From Candidatus Palauibacter sp. (GTDB taxonomy: Bacteria; Gemmatimonadota; Gemmatimonadetes; Palauibacterales; Palauibacteraceae), in assembly GCF_965208055.1 (NCBI RefSeq), contig NZ_CBDBNY010000004.1, forward strand, positions 320,045-384,044: DNA of 64,000 nt. Direction: 5' to 3'. The position numbers and the translations under genes were made by a program. Under the pieces are notes generated by a model. The model was given only the letters and a program-made list of their open reading frames with translations, was not told where the DNA came from and searched no databases. Shown piece by piece: positions 47,960 to 62,501 of the stretch. How positions within the stretch are numbered: position 1 is the stretch's first letter; each line of letters starts with the position of its first letter.

Positions 47960-48037
47960 CTCGCACAGATAGTTGGGATGGCGGGAATAGCGGAACAGGC
48001 CGGAGGTCGTGAACAGGCGTTCGACCTCCTCGCCGGC

Positions 48038-51000
48038 TCAGGTCGCGGTCAGCCGCCGCACCAGCGCCTGCAGCCATTCGCTCACCTCCCGGACCTCCTC
48101 CCGGAGTTCCTCGTGCCGCTCGTAGGCGTCGGCGCCCGGCGCCTGGTCGGCCCGCCCGGTCATGCCGGCGAGATAGTTGAGCTGGCTCAGGAGCATGGGG
48201 CGCGGATAGCTGCCCTCCGCGTCGTTTACGCGCGCGTCGAGTTCGGCGAGTTCCTCGGCCACATCGTCGAGCGTCTCGTTGCGGCCGCCGCCGGCGTCCG
48301 CGCGCGCCTCCGCGATTTGCTCGCGCAGATCGTCGATGCCGTCCGCGACCTCACGGGCCTCCGCCTGCGTCTCCCGCACGGCGAGGTTGAACCGGTACTG
48401 TTCCTCGAGGTCGGCGACGGTGACTCCCTCCGCCGCCACCCGCGGGTCGATCCGCAGTTCGAGCCCCGCCTCGGCCGTCACGCCGCCCGCCGAGAGGCGA
48501 ACCGTGTAGTCGCCCGGCGGCACGATCGGCCCGCCGCGCCCCTGGCCCTGCGAGCGCAGATCCCAGCGCAGCCGGTGCATGCCCGGCGCTGACGAGACCC
48601 CACGCGAGGGCCCGCCGCGCGGCGCCATGCGCTGCATCGCCGGTCCTCCCGCCCGGGCCGCCCCGCCGCCTCCGCCGCCGGCGTAGGAGCGGATCACCTC
48701 GCCGTCCGCGTCGAGAATCTCGATCTCCACCGTTTCGTCGGGTCCCAGGTCCGGCGAGATCCAGTAGTTGATGTCCGCGCCCGCTCCGCGATAGTTCGGC
48801 CGCGCCGTATTCGAGGCCCATTCGAAGCCCGAGTTCCGTCCGGGGCGCGTGCGGTACTGCGGCCGTCCCTCGAACAGGTGCGCCCCGCCTCCCGCCGCGA
48901 CCGATCCGTCGGCGCCGATCTCGTGCAACGGCGTGAGATCGTCCAGCACCCAGAATCCCCGGCCCATGGTCGAGAGCGCCAGGTCCTGCCGGTACACCTC
49001 GATGTCCGTCACGGGCGTCAACGGGAGGTCGAGCTGGAACGGCTGCCATGTCGCCCCGTCGTCGAAGGAGATGAAGAGCCCGAACTCCGTCCCCGCGTAC
49101 AGCAGGCCCGCGCGGTCCGGATCCTCGCGCACGACCCGCACGGGCACATCCGCGGGAATCCCGTTCGTCCCATCGGTGAGCGGCGTCCACGTCTCCCCCG
49201 CGTCGTCCGTCCGGTAGACGTAGGGGCTGAAGTCGCCGAGCAGGAAGCGGTACCCGGCCACGTACACCTTGTCCGGATCGTGCCGGGAGATGTCGATCGA
49301 GTTGATGCGGCCCTCGGGCGGCATGTCCGCCGGCGTCACGTTTTCCCACGACTCCCCGCCATCCGGCGTCACGTACACCGGGCCGTCGTTCGCCCCCGTC
49401 CAGATGACGTCGGGGTCGTGCGGCGAGGCCTCGATCACGTAGAGCGTGGAATAGTGCTCCTCTCCGGTCGCGTCGCGCGTGATCGGCCCGCCCGACACCA
49501 TCTGCCGCTCCGGGCGAAACGCGGTCAGGTCCGGCGAGATCCGCTCCCACGTGCGCCCCCCATCGCGGGTGCGGTGCACGTACTGCGAGCCGTGATAGAC
49601 GAGGTTCGGGTCGTGCGGCGACACCTCGATGGGCACGACCCGCTGGAAGCGGTAGGGGAGGTTGGCGGGGTTCGTGCCGTACATGTTCACCGCGCCGACG
49701 TAGTACTGCTGCTCCTGGCCGGTGCGCTGGTTGTAGACCCCGAAACGCCCCTTGCAGTTCGCGTACACGATGTCCGGGTCGCCCGGCTTCGGCACCGCGG
49801 GACCCGTCTCGCACCCGCCCGGCGAGCGCCAGTACGCGTCGGGACCGCCCGGCGCCGAGAGCGAAGGCTGCCGACTCGGCACCGCGACCGTATACGCGTC
49901 ATCCTGCTGCCCCGCGTAGAGCCAGTAGGGGAAGCGGTCGTCCACATCGACCTGGTACAGTTCCGCGGTGGGCTGGTTGTTGACCGGCGACCACGTCTGC
50001 CCCCCATCCAGCGTCACGACCCCGCCGCCGTCGCTGCCGTGGACCATGATCCGCGGGTCGTCCGGGTTGATCCACAGGTCGTGGTCGTCCCCGTGCACGT
50101 TCGGGATCGTCCGGAAGGTCTCTCCCCCGTCCGTCGACTTCCATGTGGACAGGTTGAGGACATAGACGACGTTCCCGTCCGTCGGATCCGCGGTGATGTT
50201 CGTGAAGTAGAAAGGCCGGTGCATGAGCTGGTTCCGCGGGTCGTCGTTGATCAACTCCCACGTCTCCCCGGCGTCGTCCGAGCGGTACAGGCCTTCGATC
50301 GGTTCGGGCGCCTCCACGAGCGCGTAGACGCGGTCGGGCATGTCCGCCGAGACGGAGAAGTCGACCTTGCCGATGAGGCCGTCCGGGAGCCCCGCCGTGA
50401 TTCGTCGCCAGGTCTCGCCCCCGTCCGTCGTCTTCCAGATGCCGTCCTCGTCGCTCGCCCCGGAGATGATCGACCACGGATGACGCTGCGCCCGCCACAT
50501 CCCGGCATAGATGACGTCCGGGTCCGCCGGATGAAACTCGAGATCGACCGCGCCGACGGAGTCCGAGGTGAAGAGGATGCGCTCCCAGTCGAGACCGCCG
50601 TTCGACGAGCGATAGACGCCCCGCGTCTCATTGTTGATGAACGGGTTTCCCATCGCGGCCGCATAGACGAGATCCGGGTTGTCCGGGTGGGCCTTCACGG
50701 ATGCGATCTGGCCCGCATCCTCCAGTCCGACGTGTTCCCAGGTCTCGCCGGCGTCCGTCGACTTATGGATGCCCTTGCCGATGATGATATTCGAGCGGAT
50801 GCCGTCCGAGCCCGTCCCGACATAGAGGATATTCGGGTCCGAGTCGGCCACTTCGATATGGCCGATGGAGGGAGACCGAAAATACCCGTCGGAGATATTC
50901 TCCCACGTCATCCCGTAGTTCGTCGTTTTCCACACGCCGCCGCCGGTCGCCCCCTGGTAGAAGGTGTGGGGATGGGAGCGGTGGCCCTCGACCGCCGTGA

Positions 51001-51217
51001 CGCGGCCGCCGCGCGAGGGGCCGACGAAGCGGAAGGAGAGGCCGCCGAAGAGACTCGGGTCGACCGTCTCCGCGGCCGGGGGCGGGTTTCGGAGGCCGGC
51101 CGGACGTTGACCCACGATCGCGCCGTCCTGTGCGGCGAGGGGCCACGCGAGGGCGCCGACGGCGACCAGAGGCATGAGGACCGTTCGTGTTCCGGAAATC
51201 GGGGCGGGGAATCGCAT
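48038..51217 (-). CDS. Sortilin/VPS10-like BNR (Asp-box) repeat protein with a C-terminal extension
   Basis: Signal peptide. Many Asp-box motifs (S.DGG.TW: STDAGETW, TTDGGETW, SDDAGETW, STDGGETF, TRDGGRTW, TDDAGETW...). C-terminal ~250 aa are Gly-rich low complexity followed by a coiled-coil-like acidic tail. Confidence 0.8.
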   Translation of the reverse strand: MRFPAPISGTRTVLMPLVAVGALAWPLAAQDGAIVGQRPAGLRNPPPAAETVDPSLFGGLSFRFVGPSRGGRVTAVEGHRSHPHTFYQGATGGGVWKTTNYGMTWENISDGYFRSPSIGHIEVADSDPNILYVGTGSDGIRSNIIIGKGIHKSTDAGETWEHVGLEDAGQIASVKAHPDNPDLVYAAAMGNPFINNETRGVYRSSNGGLDWERILFTSDSVGAVDLEFHPADPDVIYAGMWRAQRHPWSIISGASDEDGIWKTTDGGETWRRITAGLPDGLIGKVDFSVSADMPDRVYALVEAPEPIEGLYRSDDAGETWELINDDPRNQLMHRPFYFTNITADPTDGNVVYVLNLSTWKSTDGGETFRTIPNVHGDDHDLWINPDDPRIMVHGSDGGGVVTLDGGQTWSPVNNQPTAELYQVDVDDRFPYWLYAGQQDDAYTVAVPSRQPSLSAPGGPDAYWRSPGGCETGPAVPKPGDPDIVYANCKGRFGVYNQRTGQEQQYYVGAVNMYGTNPANLPYRFQRVVPIEVSPHDPNLVYHGSQYVHRTRDGGRTWERISPDLTAFRPERQMVSGGPITRDATGEEHYSTLYVIEASPHDPDVIWTGANDGPVYVTPDGGESWENVTPADMPPEGRINSIDISRHDPDKVYVAGYRFLLGDFSPYVYRTDDAGETWTPLTDGTNGIPADVPVRVVREDPDRAGLLYAGTEFGLFISFDDGATWQPFQLDLPLTPVTDIEVYRQDLALSTMGRGFWVLDDLTPLHEIGADGSVAAGGGAHLFEGRPQYRTRPGRNSGFEWASNTARPNYRGAGADINYWISPDLGPDETVEIEILDADGEVIRSYAGGGGGGAARAGGPAMQRMAPRGGPSRGVSSAPGMHRLRWDLRSQGQGRGGPIVPPGDYTVRLSAGGVTAEAGLELRIDPRVAAEGVTVADLEEQYRFNLAVRETQAEAREVADGIDDLREQIAEARADAGGGRNETLDDVAEELAELDARVNDAEGSYPRPMLLSQLNYLAGMTGRADQAPGADAYERHEELREEVREVSEWLQALVRRLTAT

Positions 51218-51230
51218 GTCTACTCCTGGG

Positions 51231-52904
51231 TTATCGCGTCTTGACGAGCGCTTGGCCGGCGAGCGCGTCCGTGAAGCGGCCCTCGTCGATCGCGAGCGTG
51301 CCGTTGACGAGGCAGTACTCGACCCCCTCGGCGAGACCGTGCGGGTCGTCGTACCCGGCGGTGTCGCGGAACCGCGCGAGGTCCACGACGATCACGTCGG
51401 CGACCCCGCCCGCCTCGAGCACCCCGCGGCCCTCGATCCCGTACACGCGGGCCGGGAGCGCCGTCATGGCGTGAATCGCCTGTTCGAGCGTGGTGACGCC
51501 TTCCTCCATCACGTACTTGCGGATCCGGCGCGGGAAGGCGCCGAAGCCGCGCGGGTGCGGGTGTCCTTCGCCCGGCGCCCAGAGCGAACCGTCGGACGAA
51601 GTCATCATCCAGGGCTGCGCCATGAAGCGCTCGATGTCCTCGTCGTTCATGTTGAAGGAGGTAAGGCCGGTGCCGCCGCCTCCCTCACGCGCCTCCACGA
51701 GCAGGGAGAGCGCGGTTTCGATCGCGTCCATCCCGCGCTCCTCCGCGACATCGGCCAGCGTCCGGCCCCCGTGCGGACCGCCCTGGAGCATGAGCCGGTC
51801 GGCGCCGCCCCGGCGGTCGAGGTTCTCCCACATGTCCGCCACGAGCCGCGCGCGTTCGCCCGCGTTCTCCATGCGCGCGTAGAGGGCGCCATCGTCGCCG
51901 GCGAGCGCCCAGCGCGGGACCAGGGCCCCGACGATGCTCGTGCCGGAGGCCTCGTAGGGATACTGGTCCGCGTAGACCGCGAGACCTTCCGCCCGGGCGG
52001 CCTCGATGTGGCGGACGACCTCGGCGGACTCGCCCCAGACGCGGGGACCGAGCGCCTTGATGTGCGTGACCACGCCGGTGATGCCGGAGCCCCGCGAGAT
52101 CTCGATGACCTCGTCCACGGCGCCGAGCAGGCCGATCGAATAGTCCGACTCGTCGCGGATGTGACTCTGGTACACGCCGCCGAACCCGGCGGCCACCTTC
52201 GCGAGTTCGACGACCTCGCCGGTGGGGGCGTACGACCCCGGAGAGTAGTAGAGGCCGGAGGAAAGCCCGAAGGCGCCCCCGCTCATGCCGTCGCGAACGA
52301 TGGTCCGCATGCGGTCGAGTTCCTCGGGCGTGGCTTCGCGCGCCTGCATCCCGAGTACCGCGCGGCGCACGCTGCCGTGCCCGACGAGTTGCCCCACGTT
52401 CACTCCGACGCCGGGGTCCCGGATCCGCGCCCGCTGGTCGGCGAGGTCGATCGTGCCGCCGCCATCGGGGTTCGCGAAGATCGTCGTGATCCCCTGTGCG
52501 AGGAGCGGGTGCGCCGTCCGCAGTTCACCGCGCAACAGCGCCGGCATGGCGTGGGAATGCGTGTCGATGAAGCCGGGGAAGATGTGCAGGCCGTTCGCGT
52601 CGATGACCCGGTCGGCGGTCGCCGCGCCCAGGTCGCCCAGGGCGGCGATCCGCCCGCCGTCGATCGCGAGGTCTCCGGTGCGGGCCGCGCTCCCGGAGCC
52701 GTCGACGAGCGTGCCGCCCCGGATGATCAGGTCGTAGCTCTGCGCGTCGGCGGGTCCGGCGGTCCACCAGCCGCCGGTGAGGAGCGCCGCGGCAGCGATG
52801 AGGGTCCGGGCGGCCCGTAGCGCCGGCACGGAATTTCGCCGCAAGCTGCCGGGCGTCCGCGGGGCGTGGCGGGGCGCAGTCGGGAAAAGCATGTTGTAGG
52901 TCAT
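51231..52904 (-). CDS. D-aminoacylase (N-acyl-D-amino-acid deacylase), amidohydrolase superfamily
   Basis: Motifs PGFIDTHSH, YQSHIRDE and C-terminal GVADVIVVDL. ATG at 52904 with a signal-like N-terminus. Confidence 0.85.
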   Translation of the reverse strand: MTYNMLFPTAPRHAPRTPGSLRRNSVPALRAARTLIAAAALLTGGWWTAGPADAQSYDLIIRGGTLVDGSGSAARTGDLAIDGGRIAALGDLGAATADRVIDANGLHIFPGFIDTHSHAMPALLRGELRTAHPLLAQGITTIFANPDGGGTIDLADQRARIRDPGVGVNVGQLVGHGSVRRAVLGMQAREATPEELDRMRTIVRDGMSGGAFGLSSGLYYSPGSYAPTGEVVELAKVAAGFGGVYQSHIRDESDYSIGLLGAVDEVIEISRGSGITGVVTHIKALGPRVWGESAEVVRHIEAARAEGLAVYADQYPYEASGTSIVGALVPRWALAGDDGALYARMENAGERARLVADMWENLDRRGGADRLMLQGGPHGGRTLADVAEERGMDAIETALSLLVEAREGGGGTGLTSFNMNDEDIERFMAQPWMMTSSDGSLWAPGEGHPHPRGFGAFPRRIRKYVMEEGVTTLEQAIHAMTALPARVYGIEGRGVLEAGGVADVIVVDLARFRDTAGYDDPHGLAEGVEYCLVNGTLAIDEGRFTDALAGQALVKTR

Positions 52905-53007
52905 AGGGTCGAATCTGTCGGCCCGGATGGGAACCGCACAAGCAACGCGCACACAGGCAAGCTCACGCAGACAAGGCTCCCACACGAACGCTCATCGGAG
53001 GCACTCA

Positions 53008-54404
53008 TGCGCCGGAATCGTGTTCCGCTGTCGTCCCTCACGCTCGCCGGAATCGCGGCCGGCCTCGCCGTCGCGGCCGGAACCGCCCTCGCCACGCCGA
53101 CATCGCTCGAGGCCCAGGCCTTCGAGGACGCGCGCGGGAACATGTCCATCGCCCTCGCCGGCGACGCGATCATCTCCCGGAAGATGTCACCGTACCGAGA
53201 GCCCGAGTTCCTCGCCCTGCGGGACATCATCCAGAGCGCGACCACCGCGTTCGTGAACCTCGAGATCCTCTTCCACGACTACGAGGACGACGTGATCCCG
53301 GCGGCGGCGAGCGGCGGCACGTACATGCGGGCGGAGCCCGAAATCGCGCATGAACTCGCCTGGTTCGGCTTCGACATGGTGAGCCTGGCGAACAACCACA
53401 CGATGGACTTCGGGGCGGGCGGGGCGCGGCGCACGGTGGCGGCGGCAGAGGCGGCGGGACTCGCGGTCGCCGGATTCGGCGAGAACCTCGCGCGGGCGCG
53501 GGCCCCGGCCTACGTGGACACGCCCGGCGGCCGGGTCGCGCTGATCTCGATCGCCTCGACCTTCGCCGATGCGATGCGGGCCGGCCACCAGCGGCCGGAT
53601 GTACGGGGTCGCCCGGGGCTGAGCCCGATCCGCTACGAACGGCAGGTGACGGTGACCGCCGAGCAACTGGCGGGTCTCCGGAGCGCCCTCGCCGTCGCGG
53701 GGCGGGGCGGCGGCTCCGGCCCTCGGGTGAGCTTCGGGGGCAGCACGTTCATGGAGGGATCGAAGCCCGGCGTGAAGACGGTGCCGCACGCCGGAGATCT
53801 GGCGGAGATCATCGAAGTCGTGAAGGAGGCGCAACGCCAGGCCGAGTGGGTCATCGTCACGAGCCACTCGCATGAAGGCGCGGATCGCCGCGAGGTGCCG
53901 GCGGACTTCCTCGTCGACGTCGCCCGGGCGGTCGTCGACGCGGGCGCGGACATGTTCGTGGGCCACGGCCCCCACATCCTGCGCGCGATCGAGATGTACC
54001 AGGGCAAGCCGATCTTCTACTCGCTGGCGAACTTCGCCATGCAGAACGAGACGATCGAGTTCCAGCCGCAGGACAACTACGAGGCCCAGGGACTCGGGTA
54101 CGACGACCTTCCGGGCAAGTTCCAGGATGTGCGGATCGAGCGGGCCGGGGCTTCCTCCTTCCCGGCCGGGAAGGGCTTCTGGGAGAGCGTCGTCCCCGTC
54201 GTCGAGTACGAGGGCGGGATGCTGAGGGAGATCCGGCTCCACCCCATCACCATGGGCTGGCAGCTGCCGCGGCCGGTGCGCGGGCGCCCGATGATGGCGG
54301 ACGATGCGCACGGGCAGGAGATCCTCGATGGCCTGGCGAAACTCTCCGCCGAGTTCGGAACGACGATGACGATCGAGGACGGCGTCGGCGTCATCCGGCC
54401 CTGA
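53008..54404 (+). CDS. CapA/PgsA family metallophosphatase-like protein (poly-gamma-glutamate capsule biosynthesis-type)
   Basis: Motifs GD.I..R, FVNLE, ANNHTMDFG, VTSHSHEG and VGHGPH typical of CapA. Signal peptide present. Confidence 0.8.
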
Positions 54405-54419
54405 CCGGCTCCGTCGGCG

Positions 54420-55154
54420 TCAGACGGGGGCGGGCGAGATCTTCTTGCGGGGCGGGGGATAGGCGCGCGCGGACGGCTTGACGCCGGTGGCGGCGAACGA
54501 TTCCGCCGCCTTGAGCGCAGCGAGCACCGGGTTGATGACGGGCACGCCGAGGCGCTCGCCGAGCTTCCGCGCCACGTCGAGAAACCCCATCGTCATGCAG
54601 CCGAGGACGAGCGTGTCCGCGCCGGCGCGCAGCGCCGCGTGAGCCTCCGTCTCGAGCGTCTCGAGCACCTGCCCCGCGCGCTGTCTGAGTTCGAGCACCG
54701 GGACGTCCACCGCCCTGATGTCCGCCACGAGGCCTTCGAGGCCGTAGCCCCGCACCTGGCGGCGGATCGCCGGTATGACCTCCTCGACGACCGTGATGAT
54801 CGCGAAGCGCTGCCCCATCTGCGCGGCGGCGAGCGCTCCGGCCTGGCCCGGGCCGATGACGGGGAAGTCCACGAGTTCCCGCGCCGGGGCGAGGCCGGGA
54901 TCGCCGAAGCAACCGATGATCATCGCGTCGAACCCTTCCGCCTCCAGGCGGGGCGCGGCGTCGAGGATGCCGGGAACCGAGAGATACTCCTCGGCGGACG
55001 ATTCGACCGAGGCGGGACCGTCGTCCGTCTCGCGAACGACGGCCTCCGTCCCATGAAAGGCATGCTCGTTGAGGAAGGCTTGGCGCCGGACGAGTTCCTC
55101 CGGCCCGAGGGGGCCGCGGGACATCGGTCCGGGAAGGAAGTAGACGATGCGCAT
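54420..55154 (-). CDS. Asp/Glu/hydantoin racemase family protein
   Basis: 244 aa. Two catalytic-Cys regions (MIIGCFGDPG and LVLGCMTMG). Confidence 0.8.
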   Translation of the reverse strand: MRIVYFLPGPMSRGPLGPEELVRRQAFLNEHAFHGTEAVVRETDDGPASVESSAEEYLSVPGILDAAPRLEAEGFDAMIIGCFGDPGLAPARELVDFPVIGPGQAGALAAAQMGQRFAIITVVEEVIPAIRRQVRGYGLEGLVADIRAVDVPVLELRQRAGQVLETLETEAHAALRAGADTLVLGCMTMGFLDVARKLGERLGVPVINPVLAALKAAESFAATGVKPSARAYPPPRKKISPAPV

Positions 55155-55299
55155 GGTTTCGTGATTCCCTTCGAGCTTTTCATCAGTTCGAGGATTGCGG
55201 TTCCCGTATCCCGGATATCGAACCGGCCATACGTTACGGAGTTGGCGGCCGCCACTCCCGCGCGCCCAAGGCCAACATAGCCTGACGGCTGAGAATTCG

Positions 55300-56583
55300 A
55301 TGATCAAGTCGCTTCGTCTCGTCAACTTCAAGAATTTCGCGGACGAAACCCTTCGCATGGGGCCGTTCACGGTCGTCGCGGGTGCAAACGCTAGCGGCAA
55401 GAGCAACATTCGAGACGCCTTCCGCATCCTTCATGGGATCGGCCGCGGCTACGGCCTCGCCGAAATCCTCGGGGGCAGGTACGGTCCCGGAGGGGAACTT
55501 CAGTGGAACCCGATCCGCGGCGCGCCAGGTGAGATCGCCCGCCTCGGCTCAGCTTCCTTCACGTTGCAAGTCGAAATGAACCTTACCGGCCAGGCGCGAG
55601 CGTGGCCGCCGCTGATGAAGTACGGCATCAAGATTGCCGTAGAGCAGGGAGCCTCACGGGAGTTCCGCGTCGTTTCCGAGAACCTGACCGTGAGGAACAA
55701 ACCCATCTATACGAGTCACCCGCCGGCACCTGATCCTGTTGCGAAACAAGATGACGAGACAAACTTCCTGCTGCGTATGGCCAAGACCGGCGATCAGAGG
55801 AAATACGGGCACCGCGTGATGGTGAGACCGGATCAGCCCGCGCTCACACAGATTCGAGAACACAAGAAGGTAGTGCGGCCGCACAAGGATTATGCGCAGC
55901 AGGTCATCGAGACGTTGGCGAACATGCGGTTCCTCGACCTCCTCCCCGACAGAATGCGTCGGCCGGCATTCCCTGGGCAGAGCACTTTAGGGGACAGAGG
56001 GGAGAACCTGCCCACGGTGCTCAAGGAGATCTGTGAGGACCCTTCTCGCCGCAGTGCCCTGGTGTCATGGATCCGAGAACTGACCCCAATGGATGTAGAG
56101 GATCTCAAATTCGTCAGCGACCCGACGACGGGATTGATCCAACTCGTATTCCGTGAGACGGATGGAAGCGATATCTCAGCCTATTCCGCTTCTGACGGGA
56201 CGCTCCGGTTCCTCGCTGTACTGGCGGCTCTTCTGGCGAAGAATCCTGTGGGTCTGCATGTATTCGAAGAGATCGATAACGGCATTCACCCGTCGCGCCT
56301 GCGGTTGCTACTCGATCTGATCGAAAGTCAGACCAAGAAGGGGCGGACGCAGGTTGTAACCACAACTCACTCCCCAGGCCTCCTCTCGATGGTTGGCGAC
56401 GAGACCTTCGACAGCACGGGTGTGGTCGTCCGGCGACCGCATGCGAACGATAGTGTCATTGCCTCGGTGGCAAACCTTCCCGACGCCAAGAACCTGAGAG
56501 GATCCACGGGCCTCGGCAGCCTGCTCGAGTCGAACTGGCTGGAGGATGCCGTGATCTTTACGCTCCCGGACGACGGCACTTGA
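55300..56583 (+). CDS. ABC-type (AAA_21/AAA_15-like) ATPase of the OLD/RecF-like conflict-system type
   Basis: N-terminal MIKSLRLVNFKNF...FTVVAGANASGKSNIRDAF (Walker A). Signature-like SASDGTLRFLAVL. Walker B/D-loop LHVFEEIDNGIHP. H-loop VVTTTHSP. Local GC is ~46-55% against ~68-70% in the flanks. Confidence 0.8.
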   Translation: MIKSLRLVNFKNFADETLRMGPFTVVAGANASGKSNIRDAFRILHGIGRGYGLAEILGGRYGPGGELQWNPIRGAPGEIARLGSASFTLQVEMNLTGQARAWPPLMKYGIKIAVEQGASREFRVVSENLTVRNKPIYTSHPPAPDPVAKQDDETNFLLRMAKTGDQRKYGHRVMVRPDQPALTQIREHKKVVRPHKDYAQQVIETLANMRFLDLLPDRMRRPAFPGQSTLGDRGENLPTVLKEICEDPSRRSALVSWIRELTPMDVEDLKFVSDPTTGLIQLVFRETDGSDISAYSASDGTLRFLAVLAALLAKNPVGLHVFEEIDNGIHPSRLRLLLDLIESQTKKGRTQVVTTTHSPGLLSMVGDETFDSTGVVVRRPHANDSVIASVANLPDAKNLRGSTGLGSLLESNWLEDAVIFTLPDDGT

Positions 56584-56593
56584 GGATCCTGAA

Positions 56594-57175
56594 TTGAACG
56601 TGCTCATCATCCCGGAGGACTTTCGCAACGATCAGTACATCCTGCGGCCGCTCTTCCAACGGCTCTTTCGGCGTCTCGGAAAGCCAACTGCGAGGATCCG
56701 AGTCTGTCAGAATCCACGATTGGGAGGAATCGATCAGGCTCTGAGAGTCGAGCGCCTTGCCGCGATCGTCGAGCAGTATCGCGGGATGACCGACCTATTC
56801 ATTCTCTGCGTTGATCGCGATGGGCAGGTTGGCCGACGGAGTCGACTCGACAGCATCGAACGGCAGTTGGCCGGTCCGCCCGTATTCCTGGCCGAGAATG
56901 CTTGGGAGGAGTTGGAGACTTGGCTTCTGGCCGGCGTGCAGCTTCCAGCCGGTTGGCATTGGTCGCACGTCCGAGCCGAAGTACACGTCAAGGAGGCGTA
57001 CTTCGAAAGGCTCGCACGGCGCCGGGGTCTGGAGGACCATCCGGGAGGAGGACGCAAGCCGCTCGGGGAGGAAGCGGCGCGGAGCGTGGAACGTATTCGG
57101 ACAAAGTGCCAGGAGGACTTCGACGCGTTGGCCCGACGGATTGAGGACTGGCTGGCTCTACCAATAGGGACGTGA
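56594..57175 (+). CDS. DUF4276-like small protein with a TOPRIM-like acidic motif; partner of the ATPase
   Basis: 193 aa. N-terminal IIPEDFRND (conserved Glu). LFILCVDRDGQ (DxD). 10 bp downstream of the ATPase gene and inside the same low-GC segment. Confidence 0.55.
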   Translation: MNVLIIPEDFRNDQYILRPLFQRLFRRLGKPTARIRVCQNPRLGGIDQALRVERLAAIVEQYRGMTDLFILCVDRDGQVGRRSRLDSIERQLAGPPVFLAENAWEELETWLLAGVQLPAGWHWSHVRAEVHVKEAYFERLARRRGLEDHPGGGRKPLGEEAARSVERIRTKCQEDFDALARRIEDWLALPIGT

Positions 57176-58452
57176 CTGACATCCATCTTGGAGACCGCGA
57201 CCTCGCCCTACTGCAAGGGGGGGCGGGGGAGGGCACGCAGCTGGCCATGTCGATCCTCGCGCGCATGGCCGATGTGGTCGGGGCGCGGGAACTGCTCGAC
57301 ATCACGGCGGCGCACATCGATTCGTCGCTCTACCAGGGGCCGGCGACCCTCGAGTTCGCGGAGCGCCTGGCGGACGGCGGCGCACGGGTGCGGGTGCCGA
57401 CGACGCTCAACGTCTCCGGGGTCGACGAACACGGCTGGCGCGAGTGGGACGTGTCCGAATCCTGGGCCGAACCGGCGCGCCGCCAGATGGAGGCGTACGA
57501 GGCGATGGGCTGCGAGCCCACCTGGACGTGCGCGCCGTACCAGACACAGCCGCGTCCGGGGGTCGGGGAGCAGGTCGCGTGGGGCGAGTCGAGCGCGATC
57601 GTGTTCGCGAATTCGGTGCTGGGCGTGCGCACCGAGCGCTACCCGGACCTGCTGGACATCTGTTGCGCGGTCACGGGCCGGGCCCCGGCTGCGGGGCTGC
57701 ACCTCACGGAGAATCGAGCGGGGCAGGTGCTCGTCGATCTCTCGGGCGTCCCGGGGCGGCTCGCCGAGGAGCCCGCGCTGTATCCGGTGCTGGGACACTG
57801 GATCGGGTTGCGCGTGGAGGGGCGGATCCCGGTGCTCGACGGACTTCGGGCCCGGCCGGGAGAGGACGACCTGAAGGCGCTGGGCGCCGCCATGGCGTCT
57901 TCGGGCGCCGTGGGCCTGTTCCACTGGGTCGGCCTCACGCCGGAAGCGGCGGACCTGGACGCGGCGTTTCAGGGCGGGGGACCGGCGACTCGGCTGCGTC
58001 CGGGGCCCGCGGCGCTGCGAGCGGCGCGGGATGAACTCGGCTCGGGGCTGTCCGACGCGGACGGGCTCGACCTCGTCGTGCTGGGGAGCCCGCACTTTTC
58101 CCTCTCGGAGTTCGCGACCCTCGCGCGGCTCGTCGATGGTCGACGACGCCACGCCGGAGTGCGGCTGTTGATCACGACCGGGCGAGCCGTCCGTGAACTG
58201 GCGGCGAAAGCGGGCTACCTCGACGCGATCGAAGCGTTCGGCGGGGAGCTGACTGTCGACACGTGCATCCTCACGACGCCGATGCTGCCGGACGGGATCC
58301 GGCGGCTCATGACCAACTCGGCCAAGTACGCCTGGTACACGCCGAGCCTGCTCGATCGCGCCGTCGCCTTCGGGAGCCTGGCGGACTGCGTGGATTCCGC
58401 CGTCGCCGGGCGCGTCACGCGGGACGACGGCGCATGGACCGCCGAACCGTGA
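57172..58452 (+). CDS. Aconitase X catalytic (large) subunit, DUF521 family (cis-3-hydroxy-L-proline dehydratase / mevalonate-5-P dehydratase type)
   Basis: AcnX-type N-terminus LTD..L.D..LALLQGGAGEG.QLAMSIL. Conserved Cys/Ser-rich core. GTG start. Confidence 0.75.
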   Translation: MTDIHLGDRDLALLQGGAGEGTQLAMSILARMADVVGARELLDITAAHIDSSLYQGPATLEFAERLADGGARVRVPTTLNVSGVDEHGWREWDVSESWAEPARRQMEAYEAMGCEPTWTCAPYQTQPRPGVGEQVAWGESSAIVFANSVLGVRTERYPDLLDICCAVTGRAPAAGLHLTENRAGQVLVDLSGVPGRLAEEPALYPVLGHWIGLRVEGRIPVLDGLRARPGEDDLKALGAAMASSGAVGLFHWVGLTPEAADLDAAFQGGGPATRLRPGPAALRAARDELGSGLSDADGLDLVVLGSPHFSLSEFATLARLVDGRRRHAGVRLLITTGRAVRELAAKAGYLDAIEAFGGELTVDTCILTTPMLPDGIRRLMTNSAKYAWYTPSLLDRAVAFGSLADCVDSAVAGRVTRDDGAWTAEP

Positions 58453-58910
58453 GCGATCGACGGGCCGCATCGGGCTCCGGTCCGCTGACCGGCCGAGCGC
58501 TCGTCCCGGGCGCCGCGGAAGGCGCCGTGCTCTACTCCTCCGAGCCGCTCAGCTTCTGGGGGGGCTACGACGCCGAGACCGGGGAGATCATCGACCGGCG
58601 CCATCCGCTGGCCGGCCGAACCGGCGCCGGCCGCATCCTGGCCATTCCCGCGACCCGCGGGTCCAGTACCACGACCGCCGTGCTCCTCGAGGCCATCCGG
58701 CGCGGCACGGCCCCGGCGGCGTTTCTGACCCGCGGCCCCGACACCTTCCTCGCGCTCGCCGCCATAGTCGCCGCCCAGCTCTACGGCCGCGCCCCACCGG
58801 TCATCGCCCTATCCCCCGAGGACTACGAAACCCTGCGTCGGATCCCCCGCGCCCGCGTCGATGCCACGGGCGCGGTCAGACTCCTCCAAACTGCGGATCA
58901 GCGGCGGTAG
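58449..58910 (+). CDS. Aconitase X swivel (small) subunit, DUF126 family
   Basis: GTG start overlapping the large-subunit stop (GTGA). Motif LSFWGGYD...G.I typical of AcnX small subunits. Confidence 0.7.
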   Translation: MSDRRAASGSGPLTGRALVPGAAEGAVLYSSEPLSFWGGYDAETGEIIDRRHPLAGRTGAGRILAIPATRGSSTTTAVLLEAIRRGTAPAAFLTRGPDTFLALAAIVAAQLYGRAPPVIALSPEDYETLRRIPRARVDATGAVRLLQTADQRR

Positions 58911-60370
58911 TCGAGCGGCGGCGGGCGGTCGCCCAGCAGCGCCTCGTACGCGAAGTCCGTCCCGCGACGCTCCGTCAGTTCCTCCCACGCGGCCGCGATC
59001 ACATCCGGCGACTGGAAGAGTTCGATTGTCGTCAGCGCCAGCGTCTTGGCCGCGACCATCATCCCCTTCGTGCCGATGTCCGTGCCGCCGGCCGCGACCG
59101 CCTGCCAGCTGTGCGCGGAGGTGCCCGGCACCCAGGTCGCCGTCGACAGGCCAGTCGTCGGCACGACCCAGCTGATGTCGCCCACGTCCGTCGAGCCGCC
59201 GCCCACGCCCTCGACCCCGAACTCCTCGATCTCCTCCTCGGAGCCCAGCGGCCGGGAGGAGCCGCCCTCGAACGTGGCTTGGATCTGCCGGGCGAAGGCG
59301 CGTTCCGCCTCGGTGTACTCGACGCCGCCGACCTTGCGCAGGTTCGCGTCCATCACCTGCCCCAGGGCGACGTTGGGCACGAGGTCGTACAGCCCGTGGA
59401 TGACCTCGTACTCCATCTCCGTCCCGGTCCCGAGCGCCGCGCCCTCGGCCGCGCGCGCCACGCGCTCGAACAACTCGAGCACGGTGGGGGCGTTCGGGTG
59501 CCGCACGTAGTAGTAGACCTCGGCGAAGTCCGGCACGACGTTGGGCGCGAACCCACCGTGCGTGATCACGTAGTGGATGCGCGTCTCCTGCGGCACGTGC
59601 TCGCGCAGGAGGTTCACCATGTGGTTCATCGCCTCCACCCCGTCGAGCGCGCTCCGGCCCCGCTCCGGCGCCCCGGCGGCGTGCGCGGAGTAGCCGCTGA
59701 AGCGGAACTTCGCCGACTTGTTGGCCAGCGAGCGTCCCGCCCGGGCGCTGTTCTGCGAACCTGGGTGCCAGTGCAGCGCCACGTCCACATCATCGAACAG
59801 GCCGTCGCGCACCATGTACACCTTGCCCGCGCCGCCTTCCTCGGCCGGCGTGCCGTAGAGCCGGATCGTCCCTGCGTGGCCGGACTCGTCGAGCCATTCC
59901 TTGACCGCGATGGCCGCCGCCACCGATCCCGCGCCGAACAGGTGGTGGCCGCACGCGTGACCCGCGCCCCCCTCGATGATGGGCGCGCGTTCGGGCACCG
60001 CGTCCTGCGAGATCCCCGGCAACGCATCGTACTCCGCCAGAATCCCGATGATCGGTCCTCCCGAGCCGTAGCTCGCGACGAAGGCGGTGGGCATGCCCGC
60101 GACCCCGGATTCAACGGAGAACCCGGCCGCGTCGAGTTCGGCCTTCAGCAGCTCCGAACTCTGCTCCTCCTGGTAGCCGACCTCGGCCCACTCCCAGATC
60201 TGCCGCGCGACGCCTGCGTAGTGGTCCCGGCGCGCCTCGATCCCCGCGATCTGCGCGTCCTGAGCCGCCGCCACGAGGGGCAGCGGAAATACGGCCACGA
60301 AGGCGCCGGCGAGGAGCCGACGACGGCGGACGTTCCTGTTCACGACGGAACACTTGGCTGACATGGACAT
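58898..60370 (-). CDS. M20 family peptidase (AbgB / aminobenzoyl-glutamate hydrolase subunit B-like)
   Basis: Signal peptide. Metal-binding sites HACGHHLFG and YGTPAEEGGAGK. Confidence 0.8.
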   Translation of the reverse strand: MSMSAKCSVVNRNVRRRRLLAGAFVAVFPLPLVAAAQDAQIAGIEARRDHYAGVARQIWEWAEVGYQEEQSSELLKAELDAAGFSVESGVAGMPTAFVASYGSGGPIIGILAEYDALPGISQDAVPERAPIIEGGAGHACGHHLFGAGSVAAAIAVKEWLDESGHAGTIRLYGTPAEEGGAGKVYMVRDGLFDDVDVALHWHPGSQNSARAGRSLANKSAKFRFSGYSAHAAGAPERGRSALDGVEAMNHMVNLLREHVPQETRIHYVITHGGFAPNVVPDFAEVYYYVRHPNAPTVLELFERVARAAEGAALGTGTEMEYEVIHGLYDLVPNVALGQVMDANLRKVGGVEYTEAERAFARQIQATFEGGSSRPLGSEEEIEEFGVEGVGGGSTDVGDISWVVPTTGLSTATWVPGTSAHSWQAVAAGGTDIGTKGMMVAAKTLALTTIELFQSPDVIAAAWEELTERRGTDFAYEALLGDRPPPLDYRR

Positions 60371-60485
60371 GCTTCTGGAACTCCTCGAAGGGGGACGGAT
60401 AGAACGGTCTGGAGAAGCTGGCCCGCAGAAGCGCGTCTGGCTAGCCTTTGTCGCCGTTTCCTGTATCGATCACGGGGGGTTGGGG

Positions 60486-61358
60486 GTGGAGATAACGAAG
60501 TTTCCGGGGATCCTGTGCGTGCTGGCCGCGGCCCTCACGGCCGTTCCGGCGGAGTCCCTGCAGGAAGCACAGGAAGAAACGGACCCGAGTTGGGAGTACA
60601 ACGCCGAGTTGAGCCTGCTTTTTACCTCGGGTAACTCGACCGTTCGCACCTTCGGGATCGGCGGGGGAGCCCGGCGTGAGTGGGCGGGCGGTGAGCTGTC
60701 CCTGCGCGCGGGCGGCCTTCGGACCGAGTCCGGCACGACCCGCCGCATCGCCGTCGGCACGGCGGACAACTTCGCGGTGAGGAGCGAGTCCGATCCCGAG
60801 CCGACGGCCGAGAACTACTTCGCGCGGGGCGAATTCGAGCGTTCGTTCTCGGACCGCGTCCACCTCACGACGGGCGCCGGCTGGGAGCGGAACACCTTCG
60901 CGGGGTACGAGAGCAAGCTCTCCCTGGTCGGCGGCATCGGAAACGTGTGGATCGACAACGAGAGGACCCGGCTCAAGAGCGACTACGGGTTGACCCTCAC
61001 CGCCCAGAACGACGTCATCGAGGATCCCGACAAGAGCTCGACCTTCGGCGGAGTCCGCGTCTCCACCAGCTTTCGGCGCCAATTGACGGAGACGGCCAAC
61101 CTCGAGAGCACGCTGACGCTGGACGAGAACCTCACGGATGCCGCGGACCTCCGCGCCGATCTTGCCAACTCCCTGGCGGTCGACATCAACAGCTCCCTGG
61201 CCGTGAAGACGGGCCTCCGCCTCGTGTGGGACAACGCGCCGGCCCTGACGCGGGCGCCGCTGGAAGATGGCGCAGGGGTCTCGACCGGCGAAATGGTCCT
61301 CGTTCCGCGCCACAAGCTGGACTCCACGCTGACGATCGCGCTCGTCGCCAACTTCTGA
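60486..61358 (+). CDS. DUF481-like outer-membrane beta-barrel protein
   Basis: GTG start giving signal peptide ...ILCVLAAALTAVPAESLQ. Alternating beta-strand pattern. C-terminal ...LTIALVANF. Confidence 0.55.
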   Translation: MEITKFPGILCVLAAALTAVPAESLQEAQEETDPSWEYNAELSLLFTSGNSTVRTFGIGGGARREWAGGELSLRAGGLRTESGTTRRIAVGTADNFAVRSESDPEPTAENYFARGEFERSFSDRVHLTTGAGWERNTFAGYESKLSLVGGIGNVWIDNERTRLKSDYGLTLTAQNDVIEDPDKSSTFGGVRVSTSFRRQLTETANLESTLTLDENLTDAADLRADLANSLAVDINSSLAVKTGLRLVWDNAPALTRAPLEDGAGVSTGEMVLVPRHKLDSTLTIALVANF

Positions 61359-61397
61359 CCCGCGAGCCGCCCGTCCCGCGCCCGGGACCGGGGCGCT

Positions 61398-62501
61398 CTA
61401 GTCCGGGACGGGAAGCTCCGCGAGCCCCTCGGTGACTTGCTGGCCGGCGGTCATGCCTCCGACGATGAAGGTTCGGTCGCCCGCCAGTGCGATGCCGCGG
61501 TGGTCCATCGTGGACGTGCCCGGCGCCTCGGCCGCGATCCAGCTCTCGGTCGCGACATCGAAGGCGAACGCACCCGCCCAGGGCTCGGCCGGCCGTCCGT
61601 CGTACCCGATCCCGTTGTAGTTGTAGGGATTAGCCGACCCGCCGGCGAAGAGGATGCGGGACCCGATGCCGGCGGCTGCGGCGCGGTAGAGTCCCGGTCC
61701 GGGATGGTCGGGGAGGCGCTCCCAGGCGATACGGGCGGGCTCGAGCGGGTCGATTCGCCCCAGCCACGATGAAGCTTCGAGGACGAAAGTTCGGGGATCC
61801 GCCTGCACACGCGCGCCATCGATGTACACGATCGCGTCTCCCGCGATGCCGCCCGCGTGTCCGAAGACGGGCGGACCCGGGATCGGCGTCGCCTGCTCCC
61901 AGGCGTTCCGCTCCGGATCGTAGATCTGGACGGCGGCCACGTTGTCCGAGTCGTGCCAGCCCGAGACGAGGAAGATCAGCGAGTCGCGCCACACGCCCGA
62001 GACGGCGTCGTCCACGGGTACGGGCATGGGAGCGGCTCGCCCCCACCGTCCCGTCTCCGGGTCGAGGATGTCGACCTGGGGGACGGACTGTTCCGCGCCG
62101 TCTTCCGCGACGGTGTAGCCGCCGAAGAGGAAGATCCTGCCGTCGAACGCCTGGGCGGTCGCGGCGAGGCGGCCGGGTCCGGGCGGAGGCTCGATAGCCT
62201 GCCACGCCGGGCTCCCGATGTCCCACCGGAAGGAGGCCGTCGTCACGCCCGACCAGAGCTTCGTCGAGTCGATCCCGAGGAAGGAGAAGACGGACCAGCC
62301 CGTGGATGTCTCGAGCGCCGCCACGGCGTTGTTGGCCACGGGCATCGGGAGCGGCGGCGGGGCATCCGGGCCGGAGTCCCCGCTGTTCCCGGGCGTCCCG
62401 CACCCGGTTCCCGCGAGCGCCGCCCCCAGGCTTAAGGCGCGAAGCCCGGCACGCACCGGGGTCGGCGCCCCGTGCAGCAGGACCGACCTCACGGCCTGCA
62501 T
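61398..62501 (-). CDS. Kelch-repeat beta-propeller lipoprotein
   Basis: Lipobox LAGTGCG. Repeated Kelch-like motifs (GRIFLFGG, SLIFLVSGW, SRILFAGG, DRTFIVGG). Confidence 0.7.
   Translation of the reverse strand: MQAVRSVLLHGAPTPVRAGLRALSLGAALAGTGCGTPGNSGDSGPDAPPPLPMPVANNAVAALETSTGWSVFSFLGIDSTKLWSGVTTASFRWDIGSPAWQAIEPPPGPGRLAATAQAFDGRIFLFGGYTVAEDGAEQSVPQVDILDPETGRWGRAAPMPVPVDDAVSGVWRDSLIFLVSGWHDSDNVAAVQIYDPERNAWEQATPIPGPPVFGHAGGIAGDAIVYIDGARVQADPRTFVLEASSWLGRIDPLEPARIAWERLPDHPGPGLYRAAAAGIGSRILFAGGSANPYNYNGIGYDGRPAEPWAGAFAFDVATESWIAAEAPGTSTMDHRGIALAGDRTFIVGGMTAGQQVTEGLAELPVPD

What the first reader, a model, noticed from the sequence alone, without database searches (positions are those of the whole stretch)
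55300..57175. Low-GC two-gene insertion: ABC/AAA_21 ATPase plus DUF4276/TOPRIM-like protein, a candidate split-OLD-type antiphage module
The two genes sit between a racemase gene and the aconitase-X genes and have visibly lower GC than the flanks (about 46% in the first 50 nt of the ATPase gene and ~55% over both genes, against ~68-70% in the flanking genes). That pattern suggests horizontal acquisition. Gene 1 has a full ABC-ATPase motif set: Walker A GANASGKSN, signature SASDGT, Walker B VFEEID and H-loop TTHSP. It lacks transporter TM domains and has a long inserted middle region, as in the OLD, PARIS AriA and AbiLi ATPases. Gene 2 is a 193-aa protein with a conserved N-terminal Glu (IIPEDFRND) and a DxD (CVDRDGQ), the minimal TOPRIM catalytic signature, and resembles DUF4276. 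An ATPase plus a separate TOPRIM-like nuclease is the architecture of split OLD-family defence systems (AbiL, PARIS). A DUF4276 pairing is, to my knowledge, not functionally characterised.
Basis: partly seen in the sequence, partly recalled or inferred. Interest (0 to 1): 0.8.

Follow-up and report, generated by a model that had tools for sequence, protein, structure and literature searches.

The report
Inserted ATPase–TOPRIM candidate phage-defence pair
A two-gene cassette (an OLD/SMC-type ABC ATPase plus a small, unannotated TOPRIM-like nuclease) has been inserted between two housekeeping genes of a marine Gemmatimonadota symbiont; it is a new effector variant of an already catalogued class of candidate anti-phage modules, not a new kind of system.

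Summary
Two co-directional ORFs (55300-56583 and 56594-57175) form the lowest-GC 1.9 kb of the window, though at 60.1%, not ~55%. Close relatives with 90-97% identical flanks have racemase and AcnX directly adjacent, so the pair is a genuine ~2.05-kb insertion.

Gene 1 is an ABC ATPase with all motifs invariant. It matches PADLOC PDC-M07A over its full length (2.5e-68). Its fold is an SMC/Rad50 head, close to PtuA, AriA, GajA and OLD.

Gene 2 has no Pfam or PADLOC hit itself. However, 22 of 53 family members hit DUF4276 and 5 hit RloB. Its model is a four-strand α/β core plus a helical domain, with Glu8 after β1, D74xD76 after β3 and E106/E108 after β4. That is the OLD TOPRIM metal-site layout.

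In 80 of 80 genomes from ten or more phyla or classes the ATPase sits immediately upstream. In 25 of 80 the pair lies between HmaB and HmaC, the slot used by HEC-01.

Such ATPase–TOPRIM dyads are already described (HEC-01, MAD3-MAD4, AbiL, PARIS). Defence is inferred here, not shown. Verdict: new variant of a known kind, moderate interest.

The parts
55162..55299 (+). Left junction and cassette-borne 5' leader (138 nt) between the racemase start region and the ATPase ATG.
   Evidence: Homology to the empty site L087 ends at 55161. The leader is conserved only among Palauibacter copies (L002, L007), not across phyla. No sigma-70-like promoter was found.
55300..56583 (+). OLD/SMC-type ABC ATPase, 427 aa (PDC-M07A / HEC-01A-like); the proposed sensor and regulator.
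55381..55404 (+). Walker A / P-loop, G28-A-N-A-S-G-K-S35.
   Evidence: G28, N30, A31, S32, G33, K34 and S35 are invariant in 36 homologues.
55525..55704 (+). Hypervariable segment of the ATPase (residues ~76-135, β-rich Insert 1); candidate trigger-sensing surface.
   Evidence: Column entropy is 1.6-2.7 bits here against a mean of 1.04 for the whole protein. Strands 86-138 in the model. The role is inferred by analogy with Payne et al. and PARIS.
56191..56202 (+). ABC signature motif, S298-D-G-T301 (within SASDGT).
   Evidence: Invariant.
56263..56277 (+). Walker B, catalytic Glu and D-loop, F322-E-E-I-D326.
   Evidence: F322, E323 and E324 are invariant; I325 and D326 are at least 90% conserved.
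56362..56370 (+). H-loop, T355-T-H357.
   Evidence: T355 and H357 are invariant.
56582..56586 (+). GAGGA Shine-Dalgarno for the small gene, overlapping the ATPase stop codon (TGA 56581-56583).
   Evidence: Read directly from the sequence. It lies 7 nt before the TTG start at 56594.
56594..57175 (+). Small TOPRIM-like protein, 193 aa (divergent DUF4276/HEC-01B relative): four-strand α/β core (residues 1-102) plus a helical domain (107-188); the proposed nuclease effector.
56615..56632 (+). Glu8-Asp9 ... Asp13: the TOPRIM glutamate directly after β1 and a second acidic residue at +5.
   Evidence: E8 and D13 are invariant and D9 is at least 90% conserved in 53 members. Positions relative to β1. 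They resemble BpOLD E400/E404 (PMC6755086); this correspondence is inferred.
56813..56821 (+). D74-R75-D76, the DxD motif directly after β3.
   Evidence: At least 90% conserved. β3 spans residues 68-73.
56909..56917 (+). E106-L-E108 at the junction of β4 and the helical domain; candidate metal-B ligands.
   Evidence: E108 is invariant and E106 is at least 90% conserved. The position resembles BpOLD T506/E508; this is inferred.
57172..57175 (+). GTGA overlap: the stop codon of the small gene overlaps the new GTG start codon of AcnX. This is the right edge of the insertion.
   Evidence: The empty site L087 has an ATG start and a 53-nt spacer. L003 has the same GTGA overlap. No terminator-like site lies between the genes.
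57172..57216 (+). First 15 codons of AcnX. They have the same length as in the empty-site allele but are too diverged for blastn, so the junction zone was remodelled.
   Evidence: MTDIHLGDRDLALLQ in the window against MKSVRLDERDVALLA in L087.

Best explanation
The region is a horizontally acquired, self-contained two-gene cassette. It belongs to the class in which an OLD-type ABC ATPase is paired with a separate TOPRIM nuclease, the class that includes HEC-01, PDC-M07, MAD3-MAD4, AbiL and PARIS.

Shown:
- It is an insertion.
- The two genes are strictly linked.
- The ATPase is an intact SMC/OLD-type ABC head.
- The partner is a DUF4276-related α/β protein with conserved acidic residues at TOPRIM positions.
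- The cassette recurrently sits inside Hma/BR methylation-based defence loci.

Inferred mechanism:
1. The ATPase dimerises or oligomerises through ATP sandwiched between Walker A and the signature motif, and holds or gates the small nuclease.
2. Its hypervariable Insert 1 (residues ~76-135) recognises a phage-derived trigger, plausibly an anti-restriction protein, given the embedding in methylation-based systems.
3. ATP-dependent rearrangement releases or activates the TOPRIM protein.
4. The nuclease cleaves nucleic acid by two-metal catalysis. Metal A would be bound by E8, D74 and D76. Metal B would be bound by D13, E106 and E108. A basic residue of the helical domain, such as K133, would complete the site.
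5. The target could be tRNA, as for AriB, or DNA, as for OLD and GajA. Either would arrest the infected cell.

In this Palauibacter genome the cassette is a stand-alone copy that replaced the racemase/AcnX divergent intergenic region. It is probably co-transcribed with, and translationally coupled to, AcnX.
For: Insertion: empty sites with 90-97% identical flanks; GC and GC3 dip, which recurs in 76 of 78 host genomes.

Linkage: an ATPase homologue lies immediately upstream in 80 of 80 genomes, and again on plasmid pBOCT1.

ATPase: Pfam and PADLOC matches; invariant motifs; fold; variability confined to residues 76-135.

Defence association: 25 of 80 copies lie between HmaB and HmaC (HmaB 2.7e-118 and HmaC 5e-75 in L006), the slot where HEC-01 sits. 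Guilt-by-embedding was validated for 7 of 9 candidates (10.1101/2024.01.29.577857). One HEC-01 was reported protective (PMC12881386). OLD-ABC/TOPRIM dyads in BREX/BR loci are read as PARIS-like backup effectors (PMC12839542).
Against: - No experiment exists for this family. The HEC-01 representative tested by Payne et al. gave no protection.
- The window protein itself has no significant Pfam or PADLOC hit (best HEC-01B E=0.026).
- Family hits to DUF4276 are mostly below the gathering score (15-23 bits against 30.2).
- Profile-profile support is weak (E=0.036), and a local HMM test against one DUF4276 subfamily did not separate targets from decoys.
- Structure searches rank generic Rossmann-like folds above TOPRIM.
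- In the window, and in 55 of 80 genomes, the neighbours are housekeeping genes, not defence genes.
- The cassette is absent from 50,697 phage records and nearly absent from plasmids.
- The residue-level correspondence with the BpOLD metal sites was not verified by superposition.
Confidence: 0.72

Rival explanations
1. The pair is an accessory sub-module of Hma/BR (DUF499-centred, BREX-related) systems and works only together with the helicase, methylase and DUF499 ATPase. On this view the stand-alone copy in the window is a non-functional or re-purposed remnant.
For: 25 of 80 copies lie in a fixed order, HmaB - (HTH) - ATPase - small - HmaC. MAD3 and MAD4 are counted as parts of the eight-gene MADS system (PMC11464382).
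Against: 55 of 80 copies are solo, with no recurrent neighbour. The solo window copy keeps every catalytic motif. It has been retained at one locus across Palauibacter species that differ by 10-15% in flanking proteins. Payne et al. note that embedded systems are typically also found outside Hma.
Confidence: 0.12
2. The pair is not an immune module. It would be either a housekeeping or genome-maintenance ATPase-nuclease pair of the SMC/Rad50/RecF type, or a selfish addiction (toxin-antitoxin-like) cassette that persists through post-segregational killing.
Against: Very close relatives differ in presence or absence of the pair. The distribution is patchy across ten or more phyla or classes at ~60-70% identity. 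GC is lower than the host in 76 of 78 genomes. Copies are embedded in defence loci. No coiled-coil arm or Mre11/SbcD-type partner is present. The pair evolves faster than its flanks (ATPase 83-91% and small protein 71-78%, against 84-97% for most flanking proteins). An addiction role is not exclusive of abortive-infection defence.
Confidence: 0.1
3. The small protein is not a nuclease. It would be a Rossmann-like nucleic-acid-end or nucleotide-binding adaptor (MID-like), and the effector activity would lie elsewhere.
Against: The invariant or near-invariant residues are an acidic cluster (E8, D9, D13, D74, D76, E106, E108) at the C-terminal ends of β1, β3 and β4. That is typical of a metal-dependent active site and of TOPRIM in particular. 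At sequence level the only recurrent family hits are DUF4276 and RloB. The OLD match is among the longest alignments (147 residues) and includes the helical domain.
Confidence: 0.06

Closest known systems
HEC-01 (Hma-embedded candidate 1; Payne et al. 2024 preprint; PADLOC)
   Same: Both are two-gene cassettes: an ABC ATPase followed by a small separate TOPRIM-like protein, often DUF4276. Both occupy the same slot between HmaB and HmaC; in L006 a HEC-01 pair and this pair sit in one Hma locus. The ATPase hits HEC-01A at 1e-39, and family members hit HEC-01B models.
   Different: The ATPase matches PDC-M07A much better (2.5e-68). The window's small protein reaches only E=0.026 on one HEC-01B model. 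BLASTP against the neighbouring HEC-01B protein finds no similarity.
PDC-M07 (PADLOC phage-defence candidate; cassette FAM_00005>>FAM_01367)
   Same: The ATPase matches four PDC-M07A models over their full length. PDC-M07 is also a two-gene cassette built on the same broad ATPase family as HEC-01.
   Different: No PDC-M07B model matches the window protein or any of 53 family members. The partner gene therefore belongs to a different family, and PADLOC v2.0.0 models do not recognise it.
MAD3-MAD4 of the MADS system
   Same: An AAA_15/21 ABC ATPase plus a DUF4276 TOPRIM protein inside a methylation-based defence locus (PMC11464382, PMC12065111). PADLOC mad3 scores 2.9e-23, and mad4 is hit by 1 of 53 members.
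   Different: NCBIfam MAD3 scores 100 bits against a cutoff of 420. The window's small protein does not hit mad4. The window copy has no methylase or other MADS genes nearby.
PARIS (AriA/AriB; class 4 OLD)
   Different: AriB is a 35-kDa DUF4435 TOPRIM. The 193-aa protein here shows no DUF4435 or AriB hit. PARIS is often carried by phages and satellites, whereas this cassette is absent from the phage collection.
OLD-family nucleases, classes 1 and 2 (P2 Old, BpOLD, GajA)
   Different: In OLD and GajA the ATPase and TOPRIM are fused in one polypeptide; here they are separate genes. No UvrD/GajB helicase partner is present.
AbiL (AbiLi/AbiLii)
   Same: A two-gene abortive-infection system with an AAA_15/21 ATPase and a TOPRIM-type partner (PMC11464382). 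AbiLi model 4.2e-25.
   Different: The small protein has no AbiLii hit. The AbiLi match is much weaker than the PDC-M07A match.

Membership tests
ABC ATPase, AAA_15/AAA_21 (OLD/SMC-like) clade | Walker A, ABC signature, Walker B with catalytic Glu, and H-loop, in an SMC/Rad50-type head fold without transmembrane domains. | tested here: met
TOPRIM superfamily | A four-strand α/β core with a conserved Glu at the end of β1 and DxD at the end of β3. | tested here: met
   The model has β1 2-7, β2 34-37, β3 68-73 and β4 97-102, with E8 and D74xD76 at the expected positions. Their conservation is shown. Strand order within the sheet was not checked.
TOPRIM superfamily | A significant fold or sequence match to established TOPRIM domains. 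| tested here: inconclusive
DUF4276 (PF14103) | A score above Pfam's gathering threshold (30.2 bits). | tested here: not met
   The window protein has no hit at E<=0.1. 22 of 53 family members hit at E<=1, with a best value of 2e-07; the members inspected individually score 15-23 bits. It is best described as a sister family of DUF4276.
HEC-01 | HEC-01A ATPase adjacent to a HEC-01B TOPRIM protein. | tested here: inconclusive
   HEC-01A 9.8e-40. HEC-01B only 0.026 for the window protein; up to 1.6e-06 for other family members.
PDC-M07 | Both core genes, PDC-M07A and PDC-M07B. | tested here: not met
   PDC-M07A 2.5e-68 over the full length. No hit on any PDC-M07B model for the window protein or for 53 relatives.
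MADS (MAD3/MAD4) | MAD3 equivalog score, a MAD4 partner and the remaining mad genes including the methylase. | tested here: not met
   NCBIfam MAD3 scores 100 bits against a cutoff of 420. No mad4 hit for the window protein. No methylase within ±10 kb.
PARIS | AriA plus AriB (DUF4435 TOPRIM, about 35 kDa). | tested here: not met
   AriA model 1.1e-30, but it is outscored by PDC-M07A. No AriB or DUF4435 hit. The partner is only 193 aa.
OLD family, classes 1-3 | ATPase and TOPRIM fused in one polypeptide (class 2 with a UvrD-like helicase, class 3 with a reverse transcriptase). | tested here: not met
   The two are separate ORFs with a 10-nt gap. No helicase or reverse-transcriptase neighbour.
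Anti-phage defence system (functional class) | Demonstrated protection against phage. | not testable with these tools
   Only contextual evidence is available: Hma embedding in 25 of 80 genomes and mixed published results for HEC-01.

The most novel reading that the evidence does not exclude
The cassette may be a holobiont-wide shared immune module. A single clade, about 60-70% identical at protein level, appears to be exchanged among ten or more bacterial phyla or classes, judging from MAG names that include many sponge and coral symbiont bins. Its TOPRIM effector family is invisible to Pfam and to current defence finders. In Palauibacter it has also been wired in front of a metabolic operon through a stop-start overlap with AcnX, so expression of the defence cassette and of AcnX may have become coupled. 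If the effector also has a target or activation mode different from AriB and OLD, it would define a new named system.
Probability: 0.2. Interest if true: 0.55.

Novelty: new variant of a known kind. Interest (0 to 1): 0.4.

Why it matters
**Annotation gap.** The effector family is large: 2,388 clusters at 90% identity, about 650 at 50% identity, and at least 517 reference species. It has no Pfam annotation and no matching model in PADLOC v2.0.0 (DefenseFinder was not available here), so these cassettes are probably under-counted in defence surveys, particularly in uncultured marine and symbiont lineages.

**A natural comparison.** The window supplies a stand-alone copy with a matching empty-site allele. 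That pairing is useful for defining the minimal transferable unit (essentially two ORFs) and for designing a clean functional test.

**Mechanism.** Understanding is not advanced beyond analogy with PARIS and OLD.

**Limits.** The kind of system is already well catalogued, so the finding extends a known class and does not open a new one.

Tried and rejected
1. Direct Pfam and NCBIfam annotation of the small protein gave nothing.
2. BLASTP of the small protein against the neighbouring bona fide DUF4276 protein of L006 found no similarity.
3. hhalign of the family profile (A2) against a DUF4276 alignment (A3) gave a sensible register but only E=0.036. Both alignments have low diversity.
4. A local hmmsearch of the family HMM against 120 L006-type DUF4276 proteins plus about 1,000 decoys, and the reverse search, gave 5-8 bits with decoys interleaved. 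It was not discriminating. Some of the 'decoys' may themselves be TOPRIM partners of second ATPases.
5. A PDB sequence-profile search and Foldseek against PDB gave no significant hits. The afdb50 library was unavailable.
6. The deep representative search lists only the best 150 hits, all at or below 1e-31, so it could not show the distant tail.
7. Searches for target-site duplications, terminal inverted repeats, promoters and terminators at the cassette borders found none.
8. The attempt to decide between gain and loss in the closest empty-site relatives failed, because the empty-site spacers (53-176 nt) are not alignable.
9. Carriage on mobile elements was tested: 0 phage records, 2 plasmids and 1 IMG/VR contig. 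A phage or satellite origin like that of PARIS is not supported.
10. A defence-island context was considered and rejected for the window. Neighbours within ±10 kb are metabolic genes.
Full report
**1. The observation**

The first is a 427-aa protein at 55300-56583. The second is a 193-aa protein at 56594-57175. Its TTG start lies 7 nt downstream of a GAGGA that overlaps the stop codon of the first gene, and homologues begin with the same MNVL N-terminus. Gene calls on a 99%-identical metagenome contig (L001) agree. They annotate the neighbours as Asp_Glu_race on the left (divergent) and AcnX plus AcnX_swivel on the right.

The pair has 60.1% GC against 68.4% for the window and 69.5-73.5% for the adjacent genes. 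It is the lowest of all 1,876-nt windows, about 3.6 sd below the mean. GC3 is 72% and 68%, against 86-92% in six neighbours. The '~55% over both genes' overstates the dip.

**2. It is a true insertion**

A metagenome scan with the racemase protein returned seven loci in which racemase and AcnX are directly adjacent and divergent, with no ATPase or small gene. These are L087, L088, L089, L090, L091, L093 and L097, with racemase 65-95% identical to the window.

- L087 is closer to the window in its flanks (90-97% protein identity) than any pair-bearing relative.
- Nucleotide homology between the window and L087 stops at 55161 and resumes at 57217. About 2,055 nt therefore replace 91 nt.
- The empty site has a 53-nt spacer and an ATG start for AcnX. 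In the window the TGA of the small gene overlaps a GTG start for AcnX (GTGA). The first 15 AcnX codons keep their length but have diverged.
- L003 shows the same overlap. L002 and L007 have spacers of 35-59 nt.
- No terminator-like or promoter-like sites, target-site duplications or terminal inverted repeats were found.

Four other Palauibacter-type contigs or genomes (L002, L003/L008, L004, L007) carry the pair at the same site. In these the pair is less conserved than most flanking proteins: ATPase 83-91% and small protein 71-78%, against 84-97% for most flanks.

By parsimony the empty state is ancestral. Whether L087 and L088 lost the cassette or never had it could not be resolved, because the spacers are not alignable.

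**3. Gene 1**

- Pfam: AAA_21 (8.6e-30), AAA_15 and SMC_N.
- PADLOC: four PDC-M07A models over the full length (best 2.5e-68), then HEC-01A (1e-39), AriA (1e-30), AbiLi (4e-25) and mad3 (3e-23).
- NCBIfam MAD3 scores 100 bits against a cutoff of 420, so the protein is not MAD3.
- Walker A, signature, Walker B with catalytic Glu, and H-loop are invariant in 36 homologues.
- Sequence variability is concentrated in residues ~76-135, the β-rich Insert 1. The rest is strongly conserved.

**4. Gene 2**

The window protein has no Pfam or NCBIfam hit and only a marginal PADLOC hit (HEC-01B, E=0.026). It nevertheless belongs to a large family. There are 2,388 clusters at E<=1e-3 in the 90%-clustered database, none with a Pfam annotation, and 657 clusters at 50% identity.

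Sequence links to known families:
- When 53 diverse members were scanned individually, 22 hit DUF4276 (best 2e-07), 5 hit RloB and 1 hit Toprim_4. Every other family was hit by a single member.
- The individual scores inspected are below the gathering threshold.
- Against PADLOC the members touch only HEC-01B models (up to 9 of 53, best 1.6e-06), mad4 (1) and PDC-M31B (1). They never touch PDC-M07B.
- DUF4276 and RloB have been assigned to the Toprim superfamily, with Mad4 as a DUF4276 homologue (PMC12065111).

Structure (pLDDT 80.4, pTM 0.79):
- The order is β1 (2-7), α, β2 (34-37), α, β3 (68-73), α, β4 (97-102), followed by a helical domain (107-188).
- Glu8 follows β1 directly and D74-R-D76 follows β3 directly.
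- E8, D13, E108 and C172 are invariant. D9, D74, R75, D76, E106, K133 and R127 are at least 90% conserved.

Comparison with BpOLD. The published machinery is E400, D455 and D457 for metal A; E404, T506 and E508 at the start of the helical domain for metal B; and K562 in the helical domain (PMC6755086). The family has the same layout. The correspondence is inferred, because no residue-level superposition was available.

I conclude that the protein is a divergent sister of DUF4276 with a TOPRIM-type active site, with about 85% confidence.

**5. Linkage and context**

At least 517 species-representative genomes encode a relative. The best 80 (60-77% identical) come from these groups:
- Gemmatimonadota
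- Alphaproteobacteria and Gammaproteobacteria
- Acidobacteriota
- Latescibacterota
- Chloroflexota
- Spirochaetia
- Binatia
- Nitrospira
- Mycobacteriaceae
- Rhodothermaceae

Many MAG names look like sponge or coral symbiont bins. This is a lead from the names only and was not verified with metadata.

- In 80 of 80 loci an ATPase homologue (42-83% identical) lies immediately upstream on the same strand.
- In 25 of 80 the pair sits between HmaB (DUF1156 methylase) and HmaC (DUF499 ATPase). L006 was confirmed as an Hma locus (HmaB 2.7e-118, HmaC 5e-75). It also carries a genuine HEC-01A/B pair two genes upstream, and related Hma loci have a Helicase_C+NOV_C helicase upstream.
- In the other 55 loci no neighbour recurs beyond lineage-specific metabolic synteny.
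- The pair is AT-richer than its flanks in 76 of 78 genomes (mean -6.4 points), and its GC tracks host GC (r=0.61), which indicates partial amelioration.
- The upstream leader is not conserved across phyla.
- The cassette is absent from 50,697 phage records. It is present on 2 of 72,556 plasmids; on Brasilonema pBOCT1 it is annotated as 'ATPase' plus 'hypothetical protein' near an integrase. It is present on one IMG/VR contig.

**6. Comparison with what is known**

- Payne et al. (bioRxiv 10.1101/2024.01.29.577857) described Hma-embedded candidates. HEC-01 is an ABC ATPase with a separate TOPRIM protein and is the commonest family embedded in Hma. It gave no protection in their assays. The fused HEC-04 did protect, and it needed both the Walker A and the nuclease residues.
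- Their supplement shows that PDC-M07 (FAM_00005>>FAM_01367) uses the same broad ATPase family as HEC-01 (FAM_00005>>FAM_00291) with a different partner.
- A later study reports that one HEC-01 protects E. coli against at least one of T7, T5 and T4 (PMC12881386).
- The PARIS paper adds AbiL and MADS3-4 to the ABC-ATPase/TOPRIM systems (PMC11464382).
- Rakesh and Krishnan re-name Hma as type-1 DUF499-centred BREX-related systems. They catalogue TOPRIM-linked OLD-ABC dyads in at least 1,242 taxa and read them as PARIS-like backup suicide effectors (PMC12839542).

The architecture and its presumed role are therefore known. What is new is that this effector family escapes Pfam and PADLOC models and pairs with a PDC-M07A-like ATPase.

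**7. Mechanism**

Shown: the insertion, the obligate gene pair, the intact ABC ATPase, the conserved acidic cluster on a TOPRIM-like scaffold, and the embedding in methylation-based defence loci.

Inferred by analogy with PARIS, OLD and HEC-04: the ATPase oligomer senses a phage factor through the variable Insert 1. It then uses ATP binding or hydrolysis to release or activate the small two-metal nuclease. The nuclease cleaves tRNA or DNA and aborts infection. In Hma-embedded copies a role as backup against anti-restriction proteins is plausible. The window's stand-alone copy has all motifs intact and has been retained across species, which argues for autonomous function.

**8. Verdict**

This is a new variant of a known kind of candidate defence module. 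Interest is 0.4.

Noticed in passing
window 58811-58896; L001 12218-18038: The sibling contig L001 is 99.1-99.4% identical to window 46663-61437. It carries a 5.8-kb insertion between AcnX-small and the M20 peptidase that encodes a 1,821-aa ankyrin-repeat protein with host-like GC (70%). The window lacks it. Giant ankyrin-repeat proteins are typical of sponge symbionts.
   Followed up: partly
L002 6520-7737; L003 12485-13180: The same neighbourhood is rich in indels among Palauibacter relatives. L002 has an extra AAA_14/DUF4143 ATPase gene between PGA_cap and racemase. L003 has an extra mechanosensitive-channel gene after AcnX-small. The region may be a local hotspot for accessory genes.
   Followed up: no
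window 57172-57216: After the insertion, AcnX uses a GTG start that overlaps the stop codon of the small gene, and its first 15 codons are unusually diverged from the empty-site allele. The original divergent promoter region (53 nt in L087) is gone, so AcnX transcription probably depends on read-through from the cassette.
   Followed up: partly
L006 3425-13898 (also L022, L042, L050, L066, L083): Several Hma/BR loci carry two different ATPase+TOPRIM-like pairs in tandem: a HEC-01 type before HmaB and this type after it, with a small HTH gene in between. Stacking of paralogous sensor-effector dyads inside one methylation-based system is notable.
   Followed up: partly
L007-L086 (record titles): The closest 80 homologues come from ten or more phyla or classes. 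Many MAG names suggest sponge or coral holobiont bins (SB0668_bin, RHO1_bin, COS1_bin, APA_bin, Plut_, Langseth_MAG). This points to transfer between phyla within one habitat. Habitat metadata were not checked, and the ranking is biased toward the query.
   Followed up: no
(window compared with L002, L003, L007 and with L009-L086): Within Palauibacter the small protein diverges faster (71-78%) than the ATPase (83-91%). Across phyla the small protein stays at about 60-69%, while the ATPases fall into two groups, about 57-63% and about 42-55%. This may reflect partner swapping or two ATPase clades. The loci were selected by similarity of the small protein, so the comparison is biased.
   Followed up: no
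P0054: One homologue is a 334-aa protein that carries AAA_15/AAA_21 domains and also covers 96% of the small protein. It is either a real ATPase-TOPRIM fusion (OLD-like) or a gene-call or frameshift artefact.
   Followed up: no
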